From: Candidatus Nomurabacteria bacterium GW2011_GWB1_43_19
Lineage (GTDB): Bacteria > Patescibacteriota > Minisyncoccia > Phycocordibacterales > UBA9973
Length of the DNA stretch: 64,000 bases
Reading direction: 5' to 3'
Assembly: GCA_000999465.1 (NCBI GenBank)
Contig: LCGB01000003.1
Coordinates: 4,252 to 68,251 of the forward strand
Under the pieces are notes generated by a model. The model saw nothing but the letters and a program-made list of their open reading frames with translations, was not told where the DNA came from and ran no database searches. Each line of letters starts with the position of its first letter. Position 1 is the stretch's first letter. Shown one piece after another: positions 22,980 through 60,788 of this stretch. The position numbers were made by a program, and so were the translations under genes.

Positions 22980-25900
22980 ATGATTTCAAGGATATATGTG
23001 ACGCCCAAAGGCAAGGCAGATTTCATCAATTCCTACCTGATTGCGCACAAATTCTCAAAAGAGCGGATAGAAAAAATCGCCCAAGCTCTGACGAATCCCG
23101 TCCTTGAAAACTACTCCATAAACGAGTTCCCGAAAACAGAAAAGTTTTCGTATGCTATTGAGATCGGATTTAAGCCGGGGGTCACGGACAACGCCGGGCA
23201 TACGGCGGAAGAAACAATTTACGATTTATTTCATATTCCGTCGGGTGTTGGACACCGGGATTTCGGGTGTCCAACACCCGACGGAACTCTGGCGGTGTAC
23301 ACTTCCAAAATATTTTTAATACACGAAGCGGACCGCAAAGAGGCGGAACAAATCGCCCTTTCACTTCACAATCCGCTAATTGAACGCTCTTACATCGTCA
23401 GTCGGAAAGATTTGCAGAAAAATAAAAATTTGTTTTTAGAAGCGCCGCGGGTCATCTTGGAAAAACGCGTTCCGGTAATTAACATTTCGCTTGATGTGCT
23501 CGATGACGAACTCGTTAAAATCGGCCAGGAGGGGATAAGGGACGAGAAAGGCGACCGGCGGGGACCTTTGGCGCTGGACCTTGCGTCCATGAAAGCAATT
23601 CAGGAACATTTCCGGAAATTAAAAAGAAATCCGACGGATATTGAACTGGAGTCCTTGGCCCAAACCTGGTCCGAGCATTGCAAACACACCATTTTTGCCA
23701 ATCCGATAGACGACATACATGACGGTTTGTATAAAACTTACATCAAAGGAGCCACTAATTTAATTAGGAAAAATAAGGGCCGCCGCCTGGGCGGGGCAAG
23801 TAAAAACGACTTCTGCGTATCGGTATTTTCCGACAATTCCGGCGGCATAGTTTTTGACAAGAATTATCTCATAACCCACAAAGTGGAAACGCACAATAGC
23901 CCGTCCGCCCTGGACCCCTTCGGCGGGGCCATTACCGGTATCGTCGGAGTCAACCGCGACACCATTGGCTTCGGTCTGGGCGCCAAGCCGGTGGCGAATG
24001 TTTACGGCTTTTGTTTTGGCTATCCAGAGGACGAGCAAAAATTTTTTAAAGACAAAAACATGACACAATTAATGCTTCCGCCGAAAAGAATTATGAAAGG
24101 TGTAATTAAGGGAATCAATGTCGGGGGAAATTGTTCCGGCATTCCGACTCTTTCCGGTTTTTTGAAATTTGACGATAGATACCGCGCCAAGCCTTTGGTT
24201 TTCGCCGGCACCGTCGGAATTATCCCAAGGAAAATTAACGGTAAATTCTTACACACCAAAGAGGCAAAGGCGGGTGACTATATAGTAATGGTCGGAGGCA
24301 GAGTGGGTTTGGACGGTATCCACGGAGCGACTTTTTCTTCGGTAGCGATGGATGCGAATTCCCCGGCCACCGCAGTGCAAATCGGCGACCCGATAACCCA
24401 GAAAAAATTAAGCGACGCGATTGTCAAAGAAGCGCGAGACATGGGCTTATACAACAGCATCACCGACAACGGCGCCGGCGGGCTTTCCTGTTCGGTGGCG
24501 GAAATGGCCAAGGAGTGCGGCGGAGCGAAGGTGGCATTGGAAAAAGTTCCGTTAAAATATCCGGGGTTGTGCCCCTGGGAAATATGGATTTCCGAATCAC
24601 AAGAGCGCATGACTCTCTCTGTGCCAAAAAGTAAATGGAAAAAATTTGAAAATCTTATGGAAAGCCGAGGAGTGGAAGCGACGGTTATTGGCGAATTTAC
24701 CAAGGCGGAAAAATGCGTAGTCAAATACAAAGGAAAAAAAATAATGGATATTCCGATGGATTTCCTGCATAACGGACTGCCTAAGCATCATTTATACACC
24801 TCACCCCCAGCCTCTCTCCTTGAACCCCCTTACTCCCCCTTATCAGGGGGAAACCATTTGCCTCCCCTGATAAGGGGAGGTCGGGAGGGGTTGGAGGGGA
24901 TGGCCGAAAGGCCGGGTGAGATCTACACTAAAGATTTAGAGAATCTGCTTGGCAATAAAAATATCAGCGGATTTTCTTTTGTTTCGGAACAATACGACCA
25001 TGAAGTCCAAGCATCTTCCGTATTAAAGCCCCTCTCCGGAGCAGGGCGCATCAACACCGACGCGCAGATTTTCCGCCCGGTTTTGGACTCGCCCAAGGGA
25101 GTTGTGCTGACTTCCAGCGCTTATCCGTCATATGGAGACATCAGCGCTTACAATATGGCCGCCTGCGCGATTGATACGGCGGTCAGGAACATAATTTCGG
25201 CCGGCGGAACACTCTCGCACCTGGCCATCTTGGACAACTTTTGCTGGTGCTCATCCAATGACCCGAAACGCCTTGGCCAACTTGTAGGCGCGGTCAAGGC
25301 CTGTTATGACTGCGCGGTGGGATATGGAACTCCCTTTATCTCCGGCAAGGACAGCATGTTCAACGATTTCAAAGGATATGATGAAAGGGGAAACCCGGTG
25401 GATATTTCCATTCCGCCGACATTGCTAATTTCCGCTATCAGCGTAATGCCGGATTTGTATAAGGCCGTTTCGCCTGAATTCAAAAAAACCGGAGACATTA
25501 TTTACTTGCTGGGAGAAACGAACGACGAGATGGGAGGAGGGGAGTATTTAAAGTCGTTGGGCTTCGTAGGCAATAACACCCCGAAAGTTGATGTGAAAAA
25601 AAATATGAGAACTTATCTAGCGCTGGAGAAAGCGATTCAAGAAGGATTAGTATCGTCTTCGCTTTCGGTAACTTCTGGCGGGCTGGGCATCGCCCTGGCC
25701 AAAGCCGCTGTTGGGGGGATGATGGGGTGCAATATTTCTCTAAGCCCCATAGGCAAGACCTATGGGGTAGATGTAAAGCTTTTCTCCGAAAGCCAGGGCA
25801 GAATTCTTGTTTCGGTGCCGTCTAAAAATGTTTCCGCTTTTGAAAAAATAATCAAAAATATCTCTTTCGCTAAGTTGGGCAGAGTTGTCGGAGGCGGAAA

Positions 25901-25994
25901 GGTAGTTATTATGGACAAAAGCAAGATAGTTGAGACCAATGTGAAAAAATTACACAAAATTTATCATAAATTTTCAAATGAAAACCGAAACTAA
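22980..25994 (+). CDS. purL: Phosphoribosylformylglycinamidine synthase, PurS-PurL fusion with in-frame Pro/Gly-rich insertion
   Basis: N-terminal PurS-like region (RIYVTPKGKADF...KPGVTDNAGHT), then PurL AIRS domains (VETHNSPSALDPFGGAITG, GKDSM). Residues ~606-640 are encoded by a GC-rich palindromic element. Confidence 0.85.
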   Translation: MISRIYVTPKGKADFINSYLIAHKFSKERIEKIAQALTNPVLENYSINEFPKTEKFSYAIEIGFKPGVTDNAGHTAEETIYDLFHIPSGVGHRDFGCPTPDGTLAVYTSKIFLIHEADRKEAEQIALSLHNPLIERSYIVSRKDLQKNKNLFLEAPRVILEKRVPVINISLDVLDDELVKIGQEGIRDEKGDRRGPLALDLASMKAIQEHFRKLKRNPTDIELESLAQTWSEHCKHTIFANPIDDIHDGLYKTYIKGATNLIRKNKGRRLGGASKNDFCVSVFSDNSGGIVFDKNYLITHKVETHNSPSALDPFGGAITGIVGVNRDTIGFGLGAKPVANVYGFCFGYPEDEQKFFKDKNMTQLMLPPKRIMKGVIKGINVGGNCSGIPTLSGFLKFDDRYRAKPLVFAGTVGIIPRKINGKFLHTKEAKAGDYIVMVGGRVGLDGIHGATFSSVAMDANSPATAVQIGDPITQKKLSDAIVKEARDMGLYNSITDNGAGGLSCSVAEMAKECGGAKVALEKVPLKYPGLCPWEIWISESQERMTLSVPKSKWKKFENLMESRGVEATVIGEFTKAEKCVVKYKGKKIMDIPMDFLHNGLPKHHLYTSPPASLLEPPYSPLSGGNHLPPLIRGGREGLEGMAERPGEIYTKDLENLLGNKNISGFSFVSEQYDHEVQASSVLKPLSGAGRINTDAQIFRPVLDSPKGVVLTSSAYPSYGDISAYNMAACAIDTAVRNIISAGGTLSHLAILDNFCWCSSNDPKRLGQLVGAVKACYDCAVGYGTPFISGKDSMFNDFKGYDERGNPVDISIPPTLLISAISVMPDLYKAVSPEFKKTGDIIYLLGETNDEMGGGEYLKSLGFVGNNTPKVDVKKNMRTYLALEKAIQEGLVSSSLSVTSGGLGIALAKAAVGGMMGCNISLSPIGKTYGVDVKLFSESQGRILVSVPSKNVSAFEKIIKNISFAKLGRVVGGGKVVIMDKSKIVETNVKKLHKIYHKFSNENRN
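24796..24900. repeat. GC-rich nested palindromic element inserted in frame in purL
   Basis: Core CCCCCTTATCAGGGGG...CCCCTGATAAGGGG, flanked by CCTCTCTCC.../...GGAGGTCGGGAGGGG. About 65% GC. Encodes TSPPASLLEPPYSPLSGGNHLPPLIRGGREGLEG within PurL. Confidence 0.7.
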
Positions 25995-26670: not shown

Positions 26671-27492
26671 ATGAAAAAAAAGAAAAAATTAAAATTAAAA
26701 AAACCAAGAGTGATAATAATGTCCGGTTACGGGCTTAACTGCGAAGAGGAAACAAAATTCGCTTTTGAGAAAGCGGGAGCAAAAGAAAAGGTCAGCGCGG
26801 ACATCGTGCACATTAACGACCTGATAAAGAAGCCAAAAATGCTCTCGGAATACCAGATACTCGCTTTCCCGGGAGGATTTTCCTATGGTGACGATACGGG
26901 AAGCGGAAAGGCCTATGCTAATAAATTCAAGAATCATTTGTTAAAAGAACTGAAAGAATTTTTGTCCAGGGACACCCTAGCGATTGGCATTTGCAACGGA
27001 TTCCAAATTATGACGAATCTAGGTATTCTGCCGGGAGCTCTTTCCCAAAATAAGGGCGGAAAATATCTGGACAGATGGGTAGACCTGAAAGTTACGGGTC
27101 GGAGCCCTTGGCTCTCGGGCATTAAAAAAATCTCGGTTCCAATAGCCCACGGGGAGGGGTGCTATGTAATAAGAAAAAAGGAATATAAAAAAATGTCCGC
27201 CAAAGGCGGATCCGCCTCTGGCGGAAAAAACAATGGAGAAATTGCCCTCACTTACACCAAGGGAGATATTTGCCGTTTTCAAAATCTTGAAAAAAACCCG
27301 AACGGGTCGGCTTATGACATTGCCGGCGTGAACGCCTATAACGGCAGAGTCCTGGGGCTGATGCCCCATCCGGAACGGGCAATGTTTGTTTATCAAAGCC
27401 CTTTGTGGTATAAAAATAAAAAGGGCGATAAATCGGAAATGGGTCCCAGTTTGCGGATTTTTAAAAACGCAATCAAATACTTTATTAAATGA
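26671..27492 (+). CDS. purQ: Phosphoribosylformylglycinamidine synthase glutaminase subunit
   Basis: Class I GATase: FPGGFSYGDD, GICNGFQ and the HPE catalytic triad region. Confidence 0.85.
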   Translation: MKKKKKLKLKKPRVIIMSGYGLNCEEETKFAFEKAGAKEKVSADIVHINDLIKKPKMLSEYQILAFPGGFSYGDDTGSGKAYANKFKNHLLKELKEFLSRDTLAIGICNGFQIMTNLGILPGALSQNKGGKYLDRWVDLKVTGRSPWLSGIKKISVPIAHGEGCYVIRKKEYKKMSAKGGSASGGKNNGEIALTYTKGDICRFQNLEKNPNGSAYDIAGVNAYNGRVLGLMPHPERAMFVYQSPLWYKNKKGDKSEMGPSLRIFKNAIKYFIK

Positions 27493-34810: not shown

Positions 34811-36583
34811 ATGAAAGGGGAAAGCGAAAATAGAATACATTCAGTAGACTCAGTATCTACGACGTGCCAGAACTGCAAGGGTTCATTCACGATTGAGCCG
34901 GACGATTTCGGATTCTATGAAAAGATCAAGGTTCCGCCGCCAACTTTTTGTTTTGATTGCCGGCTACAAAGAAAACTAACTTTCGTCAACGAACGGGCGC
35001 TTTTTAAAAGAAAATGCGATAATTGCGGCAAAGACACCATAACAATGTATTCACCCAGAAACCCTTTTAGAGTTTTCTGCACTAGTTGTTACAATGATAG
35101 GAGAAACTGCCTGGAATACGGGATAGATTTAGATTTCTCAAAACATTTTCTCGCGCAATTTTATGAGCTTTTTAAAAAGGTCCCGCGGCTTCATTTGATG
35201 CACAAAAACAACAACGGCGAAGGGTGCGAGTATGCTAACCATATTTACCGCAGTCGTAGAGTTTATCTATCTTATACGATAGTAAAATCCGAAGACATTT
35301 ATTACTCCAAACAAGGCCTAGAGGGAAATAAAATTTGCTTAGATAGCTTTAATATGAAACATAGCGAGAGGGGTTATGAATTGGTCTATGTTTCAAGGGC
35401 CTATAATTCAAGATTTCTAATCCATTCTAGCCGTTGCATTGATAGTCAGTATCTTTTGCATTGCGGTGATTGTAATAATTGCTTCATGTCTCATAATCTC
35501 CGACATAAAAGCTATGTTTTTAGAAATCAACAATTGACTAGAGAAGAGTATTTCAAGGAGATGAAAAAAATTAAACTTGATTCCTATACCGAACAAGAAA
35601 AGTTAAAAAAAGAATTTTCTGAATTACCTAGAATGACAGGCCCAGCCCAAGTCAAGGCGGTTGTAAATGTAACCGGCGACTTTATTGGTCATTCAAAAAA
35701 CGCTAAATACTGTTTTAGCAATGTTGATACAGAAAATTCTAAATATATTGTTTTTGGTGTAAATACTATTCGAGATTGTTATGATCTAATGTTTGCTGGC
35801 CGGAGTGAACTTTGTTACGAATGTGCTGGTAGCGGCGCTCAAAATAATAATGTTTCTTTCTCTCTTGATATAGGAGCAAATCATGAGATTAATTATTGTA
35901 TTTCTACTAACAATTGCGGATACTGTTTTGGTTGTGTCGGTATAACCAATCAAAATTATTGCATTCTCAATAAACAGTACACCAAAGAAGAATACGAAAA
36001 GCTGGTGCCGAAAATTATTAAGCACATGAATCAAATGCCCTATGTGAGCAAAATAGGGAGGGTGTATAAATACGGCGAATTTTTTCCAGAAGAATTCTCA
36101 CCTTTCGCTTATAATGAAAGTTTGGCCTACGAAGAATTTTCAATGACGAAAGAAGAAGTTTTAAAAGAGGGCTACGAGTGGCGGGACTTGGAGGAGAAGC
36201 AGTATAAAACCACTATTGATAATAGAGATTTACCTGATAGTGTTAATGATGTCAAGGACAGTATTCTTGAAGAAGTAATTGCTTGTCCCAATCAGGGTCA
36301 GACCGAGACCAAGTGCACCTACGGCTTTAGAATTGTGCCAGATGAACTTAGATTTTATCGTTTAATGAAGATACCACTGCCTAGACTTTGTCCAAACTGC
36401 CGCTATTATGAACGTCGTAAGTGGCTTAACCCGTGGAAACTCTGGCATCGGCAATGTATGTGCAGTAAAAAGAATCACTTTCACGGAGTGGAAAAGTGTG
36501 AGGTGGAATTTGAGACGTCATACGCCCCGGAGAGGCCGGAAATTGTTTACTGCGAAAAATGCTACCAGGCGGAGATGTATTAA
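34811..36583 (+). CDS. Cysteine-rich multi-zinc-ribbon protein, long paralog (family member A)
   Basis: N-terminal CQNCKGSFTIEPDDFGFYEKIKVPPPTFCFDCRLQR, a second ribbon KRKCDNCGK...FCTSCY, a Cys-rich core (CIDSQYLLHCGDCNNC..., CYECAGSG...CGYCFGCVGITNQNYCILNKQYTKEEY), SPFAYNES, a C-terminal ribbon CPNCRYYERRKWLNPWKLWHRQCMC and terminal ETSYAPERPEIVYCEKCYQAEMY. No signal peptide or TM. Confidence 0.7.
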   Translation: MKGESENRIHSVDSVSTTCQNCKGSFTIEPDDFGFYEKIKVPPPTFCFDCRLQRKLTFVNERALFKRKCDNCGKDTITMYSPRNPFRVFCTSCYNDRRNCLEYGIDLDFSKHFLAQFYELFKKVPRLHLMHKNNNGEGCEYANHIYRSRRVYLSYTIVKSEDIYYSKQGLEGNKICLDSFNMKHSERGYELVYVSRAYNSRFLIHSSRCIDSQYLLHCGDCNNCFMSHNLRHKSYVFRNQQLTREEYFKEMKKIKLDSYTEQEKLKKEFSELPRMTGPAQVKAVVNVTGDFIGHSKNAKYCFSNVDTENSKYIVFGVNTIRDCYDLMFAGRSELCYECAGSGAQNNNVSFSLDIGANHEINYCISTNNCGYCFGCVGITNQNYCILNKQYTKEEYEKLVPKIIKHMNQMPYVSKIGRVYKYGEFFPEEFSPFAYNESLAYEEFSMTKEEVLKEGYEWRDLEEKQYKTTIDNRDLPDSVNDVKDSILEEVIACPNQGQTETKCTYGFRIVPDELRFYRLMKIPLPRLCPNCRYYERRKWLNPWKLWHRQCMCSKKNHFHGVEKCEVEFETSYAPERPEIVYCEKCYQAEMY

Positions 36584-36587
36584 CATA

Positions 36588-36626
36588 ACACAATTTCGCG
36601 ATCGCGAAATTGTGTTAAAAAATTAC
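36588..36626 (+). promoter_or_regulatory. Variant of the conserved motif as a perfect 28-nt palindrome downstream of Cys-rich gene A
   Basis: ACACAATTTCGCGATCGCGAAATTGTGTTAAAAAATTA. Compare copy 2: TCTGCGATAGCAGAAATTGTAACAAAAAAATTA. Confidence 0.45.
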
Positions 36627-36663
36627 ATCTACGTTAAAGTGTAGATACAAAAAACTGAAATAA

Positions 36664-36697
36664 CGCTATGGTAGCGGCCGCTACTATTGTATTATTA
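36664..36697. repeat. AT-flanked GCGGCCGC-core palindromic element (copy 2)
   Basis: CGCTATGGTAGCGGCCGCTACTATTGTATTATT. Lies downstream of Cys-rich gene A. Confidence 0.7.
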
Positions 36698-36738
36698 TGT
36701 GTTTTTTTATTTCAACTATAATCTGCTATAATTGTTCT

Positions 36739-41144: not shown

Positions 41145-41192
41145 TCCATAAGTCAGACATATAGGGATTCCCACATGTCTGACTTATGGGAA
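41145..41192. repeat. Palindromic element, ATGTCWGACAT family, composite tandem pair upstream of rplI
   Basis: TCCATAAGTCAGACATATAGGGATTCCCACATGTCTGACTTATGGGAA. Lies between the ctpA stop and the rplI start. Confidence 0.75.
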
Positions 41193-60625: not shown

Positions 60626-60745
60626 TAGTTAGTTTTTACAGCGCAAAGATCAGCTCTCTAATTTGAGGGCTGAAAAAGAAAACATTGCTGATTTGCATTA
60701 TATTTTTGTTCACTTGCACCTTTTGTTTCATTGCTTCAAATCATA

Positions 60746-60780
60746 ATAATATAATAGCAGCGGCCGCTTTTATTATACTA
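60746..60780. repeat. AT-flanked GCGGCCGC-core palindromic element (copy 3)
   Basis: ATAATATAATAGCAGCGGCCGCTTTTATTATACTA, immediately after the trpA stop. Confidence 0.7.
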
Positions 60781-60788
60781 TTTAGGTA

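What the first reader, a model, noticed from the sequence alone, without database searches (positions are those of the whole stretch)
24796..24900. About 105-nt GC-rich nested palindromic element inserted in frame into purL
Within otherwise AT-rich purL there is a segment of about 65% GC with inner inverted repeat CCCCCTTATCAGGGGG/CCCCTGATAAGGGG and outer inverted repeat CCTCTCTCC.../...GGAGGTCGGGAGGGG. It encodes a Pro/Gly-rich peptide (SPPASLLEPPYSPLSGGNHLPPLIRGGREGLEG). This is unlike any conserved PurL region. It is a second example of an in-frame palindromic insertion in an essential enzyme.
Basis: seen in the sequence. Interest (0 to 1): 0.55.

Follow-up and report, generated by a model that had tools for sequence, protein, structure and literature searches.

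The report
Nested mobile hairpin repeats inside purL
A purine-synthesis gene (purL) of a groundwater Candidatus Nomurabacteria bacterium carries, in frame, two nested copies of small palindromic "selfish" DNA repeats, and the inner repeat belongs to an apparently undescribed family whose core is letter-for-letter identical in at least seven bacterial phyla.

Summary
Window 24798-24923 is a 126-nt (42-codon), 62% GC palindromic block in frame in purL (47% GC). It folds far better than shuffles (z = -5.1).

It is absent from most of 120 PurL orthologues. It lies in a hypervariable linker after the first AIRS_C domain. 51 of 121 sequences have a non-basal linker there; 26 carry a recognisable hairpin-type peptide.

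The block is a composite.
- **Element B** is a 60-nt repeat seen only in CPR-like DNA. Elsewhere it sits in frame in polA and ychF.
- **Element A** (24823-24892) sits in B's first hairpin loop.

A is arms AACCCC…GGGGTT around two inverted stem-loops, CCCC-TTATCA-GGGG and CCCC-TGATAA-GGGG. Covariation supports two separate hairpins, not one long one.

The exact A core hit the scan's 120-locus limit. Hosts span Pseudomonadota, Geobacter relatives, Nitrospirota, Nitrospinota, Bacteroidota, Chloroflexota and several CPR lineages. Most copies lie just after stop codons. About 17% are in frame inside real genes (mfd, uvrA, ligA, gatB, copA, trpE, mobA).

Best reading: a REP/REPIN-like repeat translated as a tolerated Pro/Gly loop, like Rickettsia palindromic elements. 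No transposase, target duplication, Rfam family or paper was found. The insert is fixed in the species, so it is not an assembly artefact.

The parts
22980..25994 (+). purL, a PurS-like N domain + linker + FGAM synthase II fusion of 1004 aa. The ORF is open from 22905. This is the host gene.
   Evidence: Pfam finds FGAR-AT_linker, AIRS and AIRS_C. Solved PurL chains match at E = 2e-63. 120 orthologues begin at MISRIYV.
24798..24923 (+). The whole composite palindromic insert. It is 126 nt = 42 codons (residues 607-648 of the 1004-aa protein), 62% GC, and encodes TSPPASLLEPPYSPLSGGNHLPPLIRGGREGLEGMAERPGEI.
   Evidence: It replaces the basal linker of about 18 aa seen in most orthologues.
24798..24822 (.). 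Element B, 5' part: ACCTCACCCCCAGCC TCTCTCCTT G. This holds the outer-stem strand ACCTCACCC and the 5' strand of B's first hairpin.
   Evidence: It is nearly identical to ACCTCACCCCCAGCCCCTCTCCTT in the purL of P0016 and P0100, and to copies in polA and ychF on metagenome contigs.
24823..24892 (.). Element A, the 70-nt cross-phylum repeat: AACCCCCTTAC - HP1 - spacer - HP2 - GTCGGGAGGGGTT.
   Evidence: Covariance model R1 scores 65 bits, E = 2e-20, and this is the only copy in the 64-kb window. More than 125 copies share the same two cores in other genomes.
24834..24851 (.). Stem-loop HP1: TC-CCCC-TTATCA-GGGG-GA. Read as P-L-S-G-G.
   Evidence: The closing pairs covary across 123 copies. At columns 20-35 the counts are CG 83, UA 35 and unpaired 1.
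24852..24861 (.). Variable spacer between the two stem-loops (AACCATTTGC). It is 6-30 nt long across the family.
24862..24879 (.). Stem-loop HP2: CT-CCCC-TGATAA-GGGG-AG. Read as P-L-I-R-G-G.
   Evidence: The closing pairs covary. At columns 65-80 the counts are CG 60, UA 56 and unpaired 4.
24893..24923 (.). Element B, 3' part: GGAGGGGA (3' strand of B's first hairpin), the GGCC-GAAA-GGCC mini-hairpin (24902-24913) and the outer-stem strand GGGTGAGAT.
   Evidence: There is an exact 19-nt match GGCCGAAAGGCCGGGTGAG to P0100's purL.

Best explanation
The segment is a fixed, translated, in-frame insertion of two nested, non-autonomous palindromic DNA repeats.

**The two elements.**
- Element B (the outer element) is a 60-nt, 20-codon hairpin repeat found only in CPR-type DNA in this sample.
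- Element A is a REP-dimer/REPIN-like repeat and sits in the loop of B's first hairpin. It consists of arms AACCCC…GGGGTT around two inverted 6-7-bp stem-loops, with loops TTATCA and TGATAA.

**Why the gene survives (inferred).**
- The insert lies in a poorly constrained linker between the two halves of PurL.
- It lacks stop codons in the frame that is read.
- It adds a whole number of codons.
- It is therefore read through as a Pro/Gly-rich loop.

**Effect on PurL (inferred).** On this reading it is passenger (selfish or neutral) DNA and not an adaptation of PurL.

**How the elements spread (inferred, not shown).** The likely route is single-stranded-DNA hairpin recognition by a factor acting in trans, of the HUH/RAYT kind that leaves no target duplication. 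The invariant hairpin cores would be the recognition sites.
For: **Shown: it is an insertion.**
- It is absent from most of 120 orthologues.
- The nearest relatives of element-bearing orthologues have the basal linker. P0016 carries B, while P0033 at 90% identity does not.

**Shown: the DNA is younger or more constrained than the gene.** Third-codon-position identity is 0.86 inside the shared element. It is 0.40-0.48 in the rest of purL.

**Shown: the site is a hotspot.**
- 51 of 121 linkers are non-basal.
- A-type peptides occur in three separate clades: the window lineage, P0024 and P0040.
- P0024's DNA holds element A without B.

**Shown: B occurs independently.** It is in frame in DNA polymerase I (between the 5'-3' exonuclease and polymerase domains) and in YchF, always read as TSPPAPLLxKERVAERPGEV.

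**Shown: A is a repeat family.**
- The scan for the exact core pair stopped at its 120-locus limit.
- Hosts are Pseudomonadota (alpha, beta, gamma), Geobacteraceae/Desulfuromonadales, Nitrospirota, Nitrospinota, Bacteroidota, Chloroflexota and several CPR lineages. They include complete long-read chromosomes with many copies.

**Shown: A is placed like REPs.**
- Intergenic copies split into 44 between same-direction genes, 24 between convergent genes and 10 between divergent genes.
- For the same-direction copies, the median distance from the upstream stop codon is 18 nt.
- Only about 26% of copies lie in ORFs, although the loci are about 88% coding.

**Shown: other copies are tolerated in frame.** Pfam domains lie on both sides of the copy in mfd, gatB, a nitrogenase component, copA, trigger factor, trpE, ligA, mobA, a hydrolase and uvrA.

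**Shown: A has two hairpins.** Covariation supports them, not one long hairpin.

**Shown: no target-site duplication**.

**Shown: fixed in the species, not an artefact**.

**Literature.** REP monomers and dimers inside ORFs are documented. They encode 20-30 aa and often sit in DNA-repair genes (PMC3733652). Rickettsia palindromic elements are the classic in-frame case (PMC10969869).
Against: **Mobility is not demonstrated.**
- No transposase or RAYT gene was found next to any copy, neither in neighbour clustering nor in a crude HUH-Y motif scan of about 0.9 Mb of flanks.
- No presence/absence polymorphism of A in purL was found within the species. Insertion is therefore inferred from comparison between species only.
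- The window holds only one copy of A in 64 kb, so A is not visibly proliferating in this genome.

**Direction of the nesting is not settled.** A into B is not proven. B-only orthologues could be deletion derivatives of an extended A. CPR copies L068, L100 and L106 share the CTCCTTG…GGAGAGGG flanks.

**Translation is inferred** from frame conservation only. There are no proteomic data.

**Structure is uninformative here.** The AlphaFold model was too poor (mean pLDDT 53) to show that the insert is a surface loop.

**Core invariance is partly by construction.** The copies were collected with an exact-core pattern. Even so, about 92% of all doublets in the fetched loci have exact cores.
Confidence: 0.75

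Rival explanations
1. The hairpin is a functional cis-acting RNA or DNA structure selected in purL. It might act as a translational pause between the two halves of PurL, an mRNA-stability or processing signal, or a protein-binding site. On this reading it is not passenger DNA.
For: - Nucleotide identity in the element far exceeds that at synonymous sites in the rest of the gene.
- Stem pairs covary.
- The predicted RNA structure is very stable.
- Copies in other genes also fall between domains.
- In Gallionellaceae, copies lie beside the conserved pth-ychF gene cluster. Their arms have diverged but their cores are intact. Their exact positions were read by eye, not computed.
Against: - Most PurL orthologues lack any such structure, or carry unrelated ones at slightly different points in the linker.
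- The same element occurs in unrelated genes and mostly in intergenic DNA. It is dyad-symmetric, so it presents the same hairpins on both strands.
- Domain-boundary placement is what purifying selection against disruptive insertions would leave in any case.
- No Rfam family matches.
Confidence: 0.1
2. The Pro/Gly-rich peptide is an adaptive protein linker. It might give flexibility or a new interaction surface. The palindromic DNA would be incidental or a by-product of its origin.
For: - The insert is fixed in the species and shared with an 86-89% identical relative.
- B is read in the same frame in four independent gene contexts.
- The linker is repeatedly remodelled.
Against: - In other genes the same DNA is read in different frames: PLSG, PYQG or PLIRG for the first hairpin, PLIRG or PDKG for the second. 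MobA of two relatives does this at the same site. Selection is therefore not on one peptide.
- Conservation is at the DNA level, including third codon positions.
- Most family members are non-coding.
Confidence: 0.07
3. The segment is an intervening sequence removed before or during translation, such as a small intron, a translational bypass or an intein-like element. PurL protein would then lack it.
For: A very stable hairpin inside a coding region recalls bypass or hop elements. This resemblance rests on general knowledge only.
Against: - All in-gene copies keep the reading frame open and in register. A removed element would not need that.
- At 70-126 nt it is too small for group I or II introns.
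- There are no intein motifs.
- There is no match to any Rfam family, ribozymes and introns included.
Confidence: 0.03
4. The segment is an assembly chimera or other sequencing artefact.
For: All genomes involved are metagenome-assembled. GC-rich palindromes are hard to sequence.
Against: - The identical protein is on 41 contigs from independent assemblies and archives.
- The frame is preserved.
- The family is present in complete long-read chromosomes.
- Arms and spacers are lineage-specific.
Confidence: 0.01

Closest known systems
REP / BIME / REPIN elements (repetitive extragenic palindromes, including REP dimers inside ORFs; Di Nocera et al. 2013, PMC3733652; Bertels and Rainey, PMC3337134)
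   Same: - Short GC-rich imperfect palindromes.
- Two units in inverted orientation with a spacer, as in a REPIN or head-to-head dimer.
- Placement just downstream of stop codons.
- Regions between convergent or same-direction genes preferred over divergent ones.
- No target duplication.
- Occasional in-frame copies encoding 20-30 aa, often in DNA-repair genes. Here they are in uvrA, mfd and ligA (Pfam-confirmed) and, by inspection of the translated ORFs only, in uvrD and recJ.

   Different: - No GTAG or CGTC tag in most copies.
- The stem is 6-7 bp with an invariant 6-nt loop.
- No RAYT gene was seen near any copy.
- The same 14-nt cores recur in at least seven phyla. REPIN populations are described as lineage-specific and vertically inherited (abstracts listed).
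- Copy number in the window genome appears low.
Rickettsia palindromic elements (RPE; Ogata et al. 2000, as summarised in PMC10969869 and PMC3733652)
   Same: Palindromic repeats inserted in frame into unrelated housekeeping genes of a small-genome bacterium. They are translated as extra loops compatible with protein function. Several families coexist in one genome.
   Different: - The host is a groundwater CPR bacterium, not Rickettsia.
- The elements here are GC-rich and shorter (60-70 nt against about 100-150).
- No sequence relation to RPEs was tested or is claimed.
- The inner element is shared across phyla.
MITEs with intragenic copies (ERIC, Correia/NEMIS, Coxiella QMITE; PMC10969869, PMC5896051)
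   Same: Small non-autonomous repeats with inverted ends. They can create in-frame fusions.
   Different: - No target-site duplication.
- No parent insertion sequence was identified.
- The ends are short (AACCCC/GGGGTT), and the conserved part is internal hairpins rather than terminal inverted repeats.
Multicopy nucleotide sequences of subsurface Geobacter (Aklujkar et al., PMC2996986, PMC2700814)
   Same: The habitat is the same, and one of the host clades is the same. [quoted passage not shown]
   Different: The supplementary alignments held for that paper contain none of the four core strings searched. The published family is therefore apparently a different one.

Membership tests
REP / REPIN-RAYT system | Short (20-40 bp) imperfect palindrome able to form a stem-loop | tested here: met
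   There are two 18-nt stem-loops with covarying closing pairs.
REP / REPIN-RAYT system | [quoted passage not shown] | tested here: met
   131 of 146 doublets in the fetched loci are TTATCA + TGATAA pairs with a 6-30-nt spacer.
REP / REPIN-RAYT system | Many copies per genome, mostly intergenic and close to 3' ends of genes | tested here: inconclusive
   Met in other hosts: there are several loci per Nitrospirales chromosome, the median distance from the upstream stop is 18 nt, and convergent regions outnumber divergent ones. Not met in the window genome, which has one copy in 64 kb.
REP / REPIN-RAYT system | Unpaired GTAG or CGTC tag at one end of the palindrome | tested here: not met
   Tags occur beside only 7-9 of 123 copies, in two minor subfamilies.
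REP / REPIN-RAYT system | Cognate single-copy RAYT (HUH-Y1) gene flanked by the REPs | tested here: inconclusive
   None was found in about 0.9 Mb of flanks, by neighbour clustering or by a crude motif scan. Whole genomes could not be scanned.
Rickettsia palindromic elements | Membership of one of the RPE sequence families of Rickettsia | not tested
   No RPE consensus sequences were available in the tools. The resemblance is in behaviour only.
Rickettsia palindromic elements | In-frame insertion in unrelated housekeeping genes without loss of the reading frame | tested here: met
   Here the insertions are in purL and topA. A occurs in 10 Pfam-verified genes elsewhere, and B in polA and ychF.
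MITE (DDE-transposase dependent) | Target-site duplication flanking the terminal inverted repeats | tested here: not met
   Direct repeats of 2-4 nt at the ends are at shuffle level. A 5-nt match occurs in only 2 of 107 copies.
MITE (DDE-transposase dependent) | Parent insertion sequence sharing the ends | tested here: inconclusive
   Only a lineage-specific IS481/IS3-like gene was found, at variable distance in Nitrospirales. In L004 it appears to interrupt a copy.
Curated structured-RNA family (Rfam 15) | Score at or above a family's gathering threshold | tested here: not met
   The best hit is a generic miRNA-precursor hairpin at 32 bits against a gathering score of 63.
Intrinsic terminator | GC-rich hairpin followed by a run of T | tested here: not met
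   The 3' arm ends in GGGGTT followed by varied sequence. There is no T-run in the window copy or in the family consensus.

The most novel reading that the evidence does not exclude
Element A is an undescribed palindromic replicator that spreads horizontally across phyla.
- Its two invariant hairpins, CCCC-TTATCA-GGGG and CCCC-TGATAA-GGGG, would be recognition sites for a widely shared single-strand-DNA enzyme or host factor that has not yet been identified.
- This would contrast with the lineage-specific, vertically inherited REPIN-RAYT systems known so far.
- CPR episymbionts, which take up foreign DNA, would acquire it from neighbouring groundwater bacteria and fix it inside essential genes, because they have almost no intergenic space.
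Probability: 0.3. Interest if true: 0.75.

Novelty: new member of a known kind. Interest (0 to 1): 0.55.

Why it matters
**For annotation.** Pro/Gly-rich low-complexity stretches in CPR proteins can be recognised as repeat-derived. Examples are PLSGG…PLIRGG, PPDKGG and TSPPAPLLxKERVAERPGEV. They should be masked in alignments, phylogenies and structure prediction.

**For genome biology.**
- Genomes of about 1 Mb, known for having few mobile elements, still accumulate palindromic repeats.
- They do so by placing them in permissive inter-domain linkers of essential enzymes. Here these are PurL (twice), TopA and PurQ. In relatives they are PolA, YchF, LigA, UvrA, RecJ and trigger factor.
- The PurL linker is a natural experiment. 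51 of 121 orthologues have a non-basal linker there.

**For mobile-DNA research.** A repeat whose 28 core bases are identical from Geobacter and Gallionella to Nitrospira, Nitrospina, a Rickettsiales genome and many CPR lineages is unexpected for REP-type elements. It offers a defined sequence with which to look for the mobilising enzyme or binding factor.

Tried and rejected
1. **One long hairpin as the conserved structure: rejected.** Columns next to the cores pair within each core in 91-96% of copies, with CG<->UA swaps. They pair across the cores in only 44-52%.
2. **Kissing-loop covariation between the two loops: not supported.** The loop variants TTGTCA and TGACAA mix freely with TTATCA and TGATAA.
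3. **A generally sits in the centre of larger palindromes, or targets hairpin loops: not supported.** Flanks beyond AACCCC/GGGGTT are no more complementary than shuffled pairs. Nesting is seen only in the CPR subfamily.
4. **Target-site duplications: none**.
5. **RAYT or IS200-like neighbour: none found.**
   - Neighbour clustering and a motif scan were negative.
   - The 540-bp stretch between two copies in L054 holds no such gene.
6. **IS481-like gene in Nitrospirales loci:** its distance from the element varies, so it is a coincidental or secondary insertion.
7. **Phage vector:** only 4 of 2.9 million viral contigs carry the core pair. One of them, L125, looked Mu-like by eye, with copies between genes.
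8. **Rfam:** no family.
9. **Literature:**
   - There were no papers with the core sequences.
   - There were no relevant papers with the encoded peptides; two unrelated human-genetics papers contain one of the strings by chance.
   - The supplements held for the G. bemidjiensis paper lack the core.
10. **AlphaFold2 of PurL with 62 orthologues:** mean pLDDT was 53 and the C-terminal half was unusable. The only usable point is that the first hairpin insert (residues 89-102) is a low-confidence loop in an otherwise confident N-terminal domain.
11. **Searching the protein database with the 43-aa insert peptide** returned nothing because of the word index. The search was wasted.
12. **Presence/absence polymorphism within the species:** none found.
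Full report
**What is there**

Window 24798-24923 is a 126-nt block with 62% GC. The rest of the gene has 47% GC and the window 42%.

The block lies in frame in a 1004-codon gene, 22980..25994 on the + strand. The gene is purL:
- Pfam finds FGAR-AT_linker, AIRS and AIRS_C.
- Solved PurL chains match, the best at E = 2e-63.

The gene sits in a purine operon. It is followed by a small ORF, then purQ, then purF.

The block encodes TSPPASLLEPPYSPLSGGNHLPPLIRGGREGLEGMAERPGEI. As RNA it folds to -75.8 kcal/mol, with z = -5.1 against 200 shuffles.

**Organism and authenticity**

The closest PurL proteins are all from Patescibacteria/CPR. The identical protein is named from Candidatus Nomurabacteria genomes (RIFOXYC2_FULL_43_16 and related GW2011 records). 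It is on record from 41 contigs in four archives. Every cluster member that spans the site has the insert. An assembly chimera is excluded, and the insert is fixed in this species.

**It is an insertion in a hotspot**

I aligned 120 orthologues of 67-86% identity. Most have a basal linker of about 18 aa (T-S-P-VIHKNxEPxLKTKKS) between ...FLHNGLPKHxLYT and YTKxLExLL. This is roughly 25 residues after the end of the first AIRS_C domain.
- 51 of 121 sequences have a longer or different linker.
- 26 of them carry recognisable hairpin-type peptides: PLLxKERG, SPPAPLLxKERVAERPGEV, or PLSGG…PLIRGG.
- Element-bearing orthologues are not each other's closest relatives. P0016 carries an element, but P0033 at 90% identity has the basal linker.
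- A second hotspot lies in the N-terminal PurS-like domain. There the window gene carries another perfect 21-bp inverted repeat (23236-23286), and five orthologues have related DVGR…RRPTS peptides.

**Two nested elements**

I compared the DNA of three orthologues. P0016 and P0100 have a 60-nt element, which I call B:

ACC TCA CCC CCA GCC CCT CTC CTT nnn AAG GAG AGG GTG GCC GAA AGG CCG GGT GAG GT

B has three structural parts:
- an outer stem, ACCTCACCC/GGGTGAGGT;
- an inner hairpin, CCCTCTCCTT/AAGGAGAGGG;
- a second inner hairpin, GGCC-GAAA-GGCC.

The window has the same B with a further 70-nt element, A (24823-24892), in the loop of the first inner hairpin. P0024 has A without B.

Between orthologues, third-codon-position identity is 0.86 inside the shared element. 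It is 0.40-0.48 elsewhere in purL. The element DNA is therefore much younger or much more constrained than the gene.

A metagenome scan found B in frame in other genes, always read as TSPPAPLLxKERVAERPGEV:
- DNA polymerase I, between the 5'-3' exonuclease and polymerase domains. Three contigs carry it, in two versions of the gene.
- YchF.

Within the DNA fetched, B-like hairpins occurred only in CPR loci.

**Element A is a cross-phylum family**

The pattern CCCCTTATCAGGGG-N6-30-CCCCTGATAAGGGG has 28 specified bases, so none is expected by chance. It hit the 120-locus limit of the species-representative genome collection. Hosts are:
- Geobacteraceae, Desulfuromonadales and Desulfobacterales;
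- Gallionellaceae and Zoogloeaceae;
- Thiothrix, Pseudomonadales and Ca. Spongiihabitans;
- a Rickettsiales MAG and Dongiaceae;
- Nitrospirales, Troglogloeales and Thermodesulfovibrionales;
- Nitrospinota;
- Paludibacter;
- Chloroflexota;
- CPR lineages Paceibacterota/Nomurabacteria, Uhrbacteria, Magasanikbacteria, Saccharibacteria, Peribacteria and Absconditabacteria.

Several hosts are complete long-read chromosomes with many copies. Only 4 viral contigs have the pattern.

The consensus is AACCCCyCnnnn-xy-CCCC-TTATCA-GGGG-y'x'-spacer-uv-CCCC-TGATAA-GGGG-v'u'-nnnnGrGGGGTT.

**Structure of A**

On 123 distinct copies, the two base pairs flanking each core covary within that core:

| Columns | CG | UA | Unpaired |
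|---|---|---|---|
| 20-35 | 83 | 35 | 1 |
| 65-80 | 60 | 56 | 4 |

The same columns paired across the element, as one long hairpin, are unpaired in 23-44 copies. The conserved unit is therefore two separate 6-7-bp stem-loops with invariant 6-nt loops, joined by outer arms. This is the architecture of a REP dimer or REPIN.

- The loop variants TTGTCA and TGACAA occur and mix freely with the main loops.
- Arms and spacers are lineage-specific. 100 of 123 copies have their nearest relative in the same phylum-level group, against 18% expected.
- The window copy is closest to a Saccharibacteria copy, L068.

**Placement of A**

I classified the 124 copies by position.

| Position | Copies |
|---|---|
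| Deep inside long ORFs | 21 |
| Within 60 nt of an ORF end | 11 |
| Between same-direction genes | 44 |
| Between convergent genes | 24 |
| Between divergent genes | 10 |
| At locus edges | 14 |

For copies between same-direction genes, the median distance to the upstream stop codon is 18 nt. The loci are about 88% coding. This is the REP pattern described by Di Nocera et al. (PMC3733652).

Ten in-ORF hosts were checked with Pfam. All have domains on both sides of the copy: Mfd, GatB, a nitrogenase component, CopA, trigger factor, TrpE, LigA, MobA, an alpha/beta hydrolase and UvrA.

Further hosts were judged only by inspecting the translated ORFs. They are RecJ, UvrD, an RND pump, a PKS, and a methyltransferase with three copies.

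The same DNA is read in different frames in different genes. The first hairpin gives PLSG, PYQG or PLIRG. The second gives PLIRG or PDKG, and its third frame is closed by TGA TAA. Selection therefore acts on an open frame and not on a particular peptide.

**Mechanism**

Shown:
- absence from relatives;
- occurrence in unrelated genes and in intergenic DNA;
- DNA-level conservation;
- stem covariation;
- REP-like placement;
- no target duplication;
- sharp palindrome boundaries at AACCCC/GGGGTT.

Inferred: mobilisation through single-strand hairpins by a factor acting in trans. HUH/RAYT-type transposition leaves no duplication. Purifying selection would then leave only copies that fall in permissive linkers in an open frame.

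Not found: any candidate enzyme. Whole genomes could not be scanned.

In the window genome A is single-copy in 64 kb. It may therefore be a relic or a horizontally acquired copy and not an active resident.

**Comparison with what is known**

The behaviour matches two known cases: intragenic REPs and REP dimers (PMC3733652), and Rickettsia palindromic elements (PMC10969869).

The family differs from described REPs in four ways:
- it lacks GTAG or CGTC tags;
- it has an invariant 6-nt loop;
- no RAYT gene is evident;
- its cores are identical across phyla.

I found no Rfam family. No paper contains the core sequences, and no relevant paper contains the encoded peptides. A Geobacter paper reports a different multicopy family inserted into genes.

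**Verdict**

This is a genuine in-frame, nested palindromic-repeat insertion. It is a new member of a known kind, with one unusual property, cross-phylum core identity, that deserves follow-up.

Noticed in passing
window 23236-23286 (inside purL): A second in-frame palindrome lies in the same gene: a perfect 21-bp inverted repeat with a 9-nt loop (TTCCGTCGGGTGTTGGACACC / GGTGTCCAACACCCGACGGAA). It encodes IPSGVGHRDFGCPTPDGT in a loop of the N-terminal PurS-like domain. Most orthologues have a short H-L-K-NNS-D-LA loop there. Five orthologues (P0004, P0015, P0017, P0022, P0026) have related DVGR…RRPTS peptides. AlphaFold gives pLDDT below 50 for residues 89-102 inside an otherwise confident domain.
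   Followed up: partly
   Followed up: partly
window 41146-41189: A related copy of the topA palindrome family (CCATAAGTCAGACATATAGG / CCCACATGTCTGACTTATGG) lies just upstream of the ribosomal protein L9 gene (41196..41660). That family therefore has both an intergenic and an intragenic copy in this window.
   Followed up: partly
window 27196-27225 (inside purQ-like ORF 26671..27492): A small GC-rich overlapping palindrome, TCCGCCAAAGGCGGATCCGCCTCTGGCGGA, is read in frame as SAKGGSASGGK inside the GATase_5 protein. It may be another short hairpin insertion.
   Followed up: no
window 36570-36721 and 60745-60782: AT-rich intergenic palindromes lie here. Those at 36675 and 60759 are centred on GCGGCCGC, and the one at 36601 on TCGCGATCGCGA. 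Their function is unknown.
   Followed up: no
L128, L129, L133 (polA) and L131 (ychF), metagenome contigs: Element B (TSPPAPLLxKERVAERPGEV, 60 nt) is inserted in frame between the 5'-3' exonuclease and polymerase domains of DNA polymerase I. It is also inserted between the GTPase and C-terminal domains of YchF. It has the same orientation and frame in all four gene contexts.
   Followed up: yes
L008 2738-2781 and L117 2882-2927: Two Gallionellaceae genomes carry element A at the same position in mobA. The first hairpin is read in different frames (PPYQGG against PLSGE) and the second in the same frame (SPDKGRLGGV). Compensating indels have therefore kept the gene open.
   Followed up: partly
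L026 5128, L039 1206, L077 1701: Three Gallionellaceae genomes share the same gene cluster (pth, ychF, rplY, prs). Each carries a copy of A, which by eye lies in the pth-ychF intergenic region. Arms and spacers have diverged but the cores are intact. This suggests long persistence under constraint, or homogenisation.
   Followed up: partly
L004 4444-4510 and 4552-5714: In a Nitrospirales chromosome, the 3' arm of an A copy is replaced by unrelated sequence about 75 nt from an IS481/IS3-like integrase gene. This looks like an insertion sequence landing in the repeat, as known for REP-targeting IS elements.
   Followed up: partly
L005 (Paludibacter MAG contig, 1973 bp): A single DNA-methyltransferase-like ORF holds three separate A-type hairpin peptides (HPPLSGGLDNAPPDKGELEGV, PPYPPYQGGIESPPDKGGGG…, PPHPPLSGGLISSSPFSGGL). 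The contig is short and has high coverage, so its binning is uncertain.
   Followed up: no
P0002 versus the window PurL: P0002 is about 89% identical overall and has the identical composite insert. Its N-terminal domain is much more divergent and lacks the 23236 hairpin. This could mean recombination within purL, or that the N-terminal hairpin was gained later.
   Followed up: no
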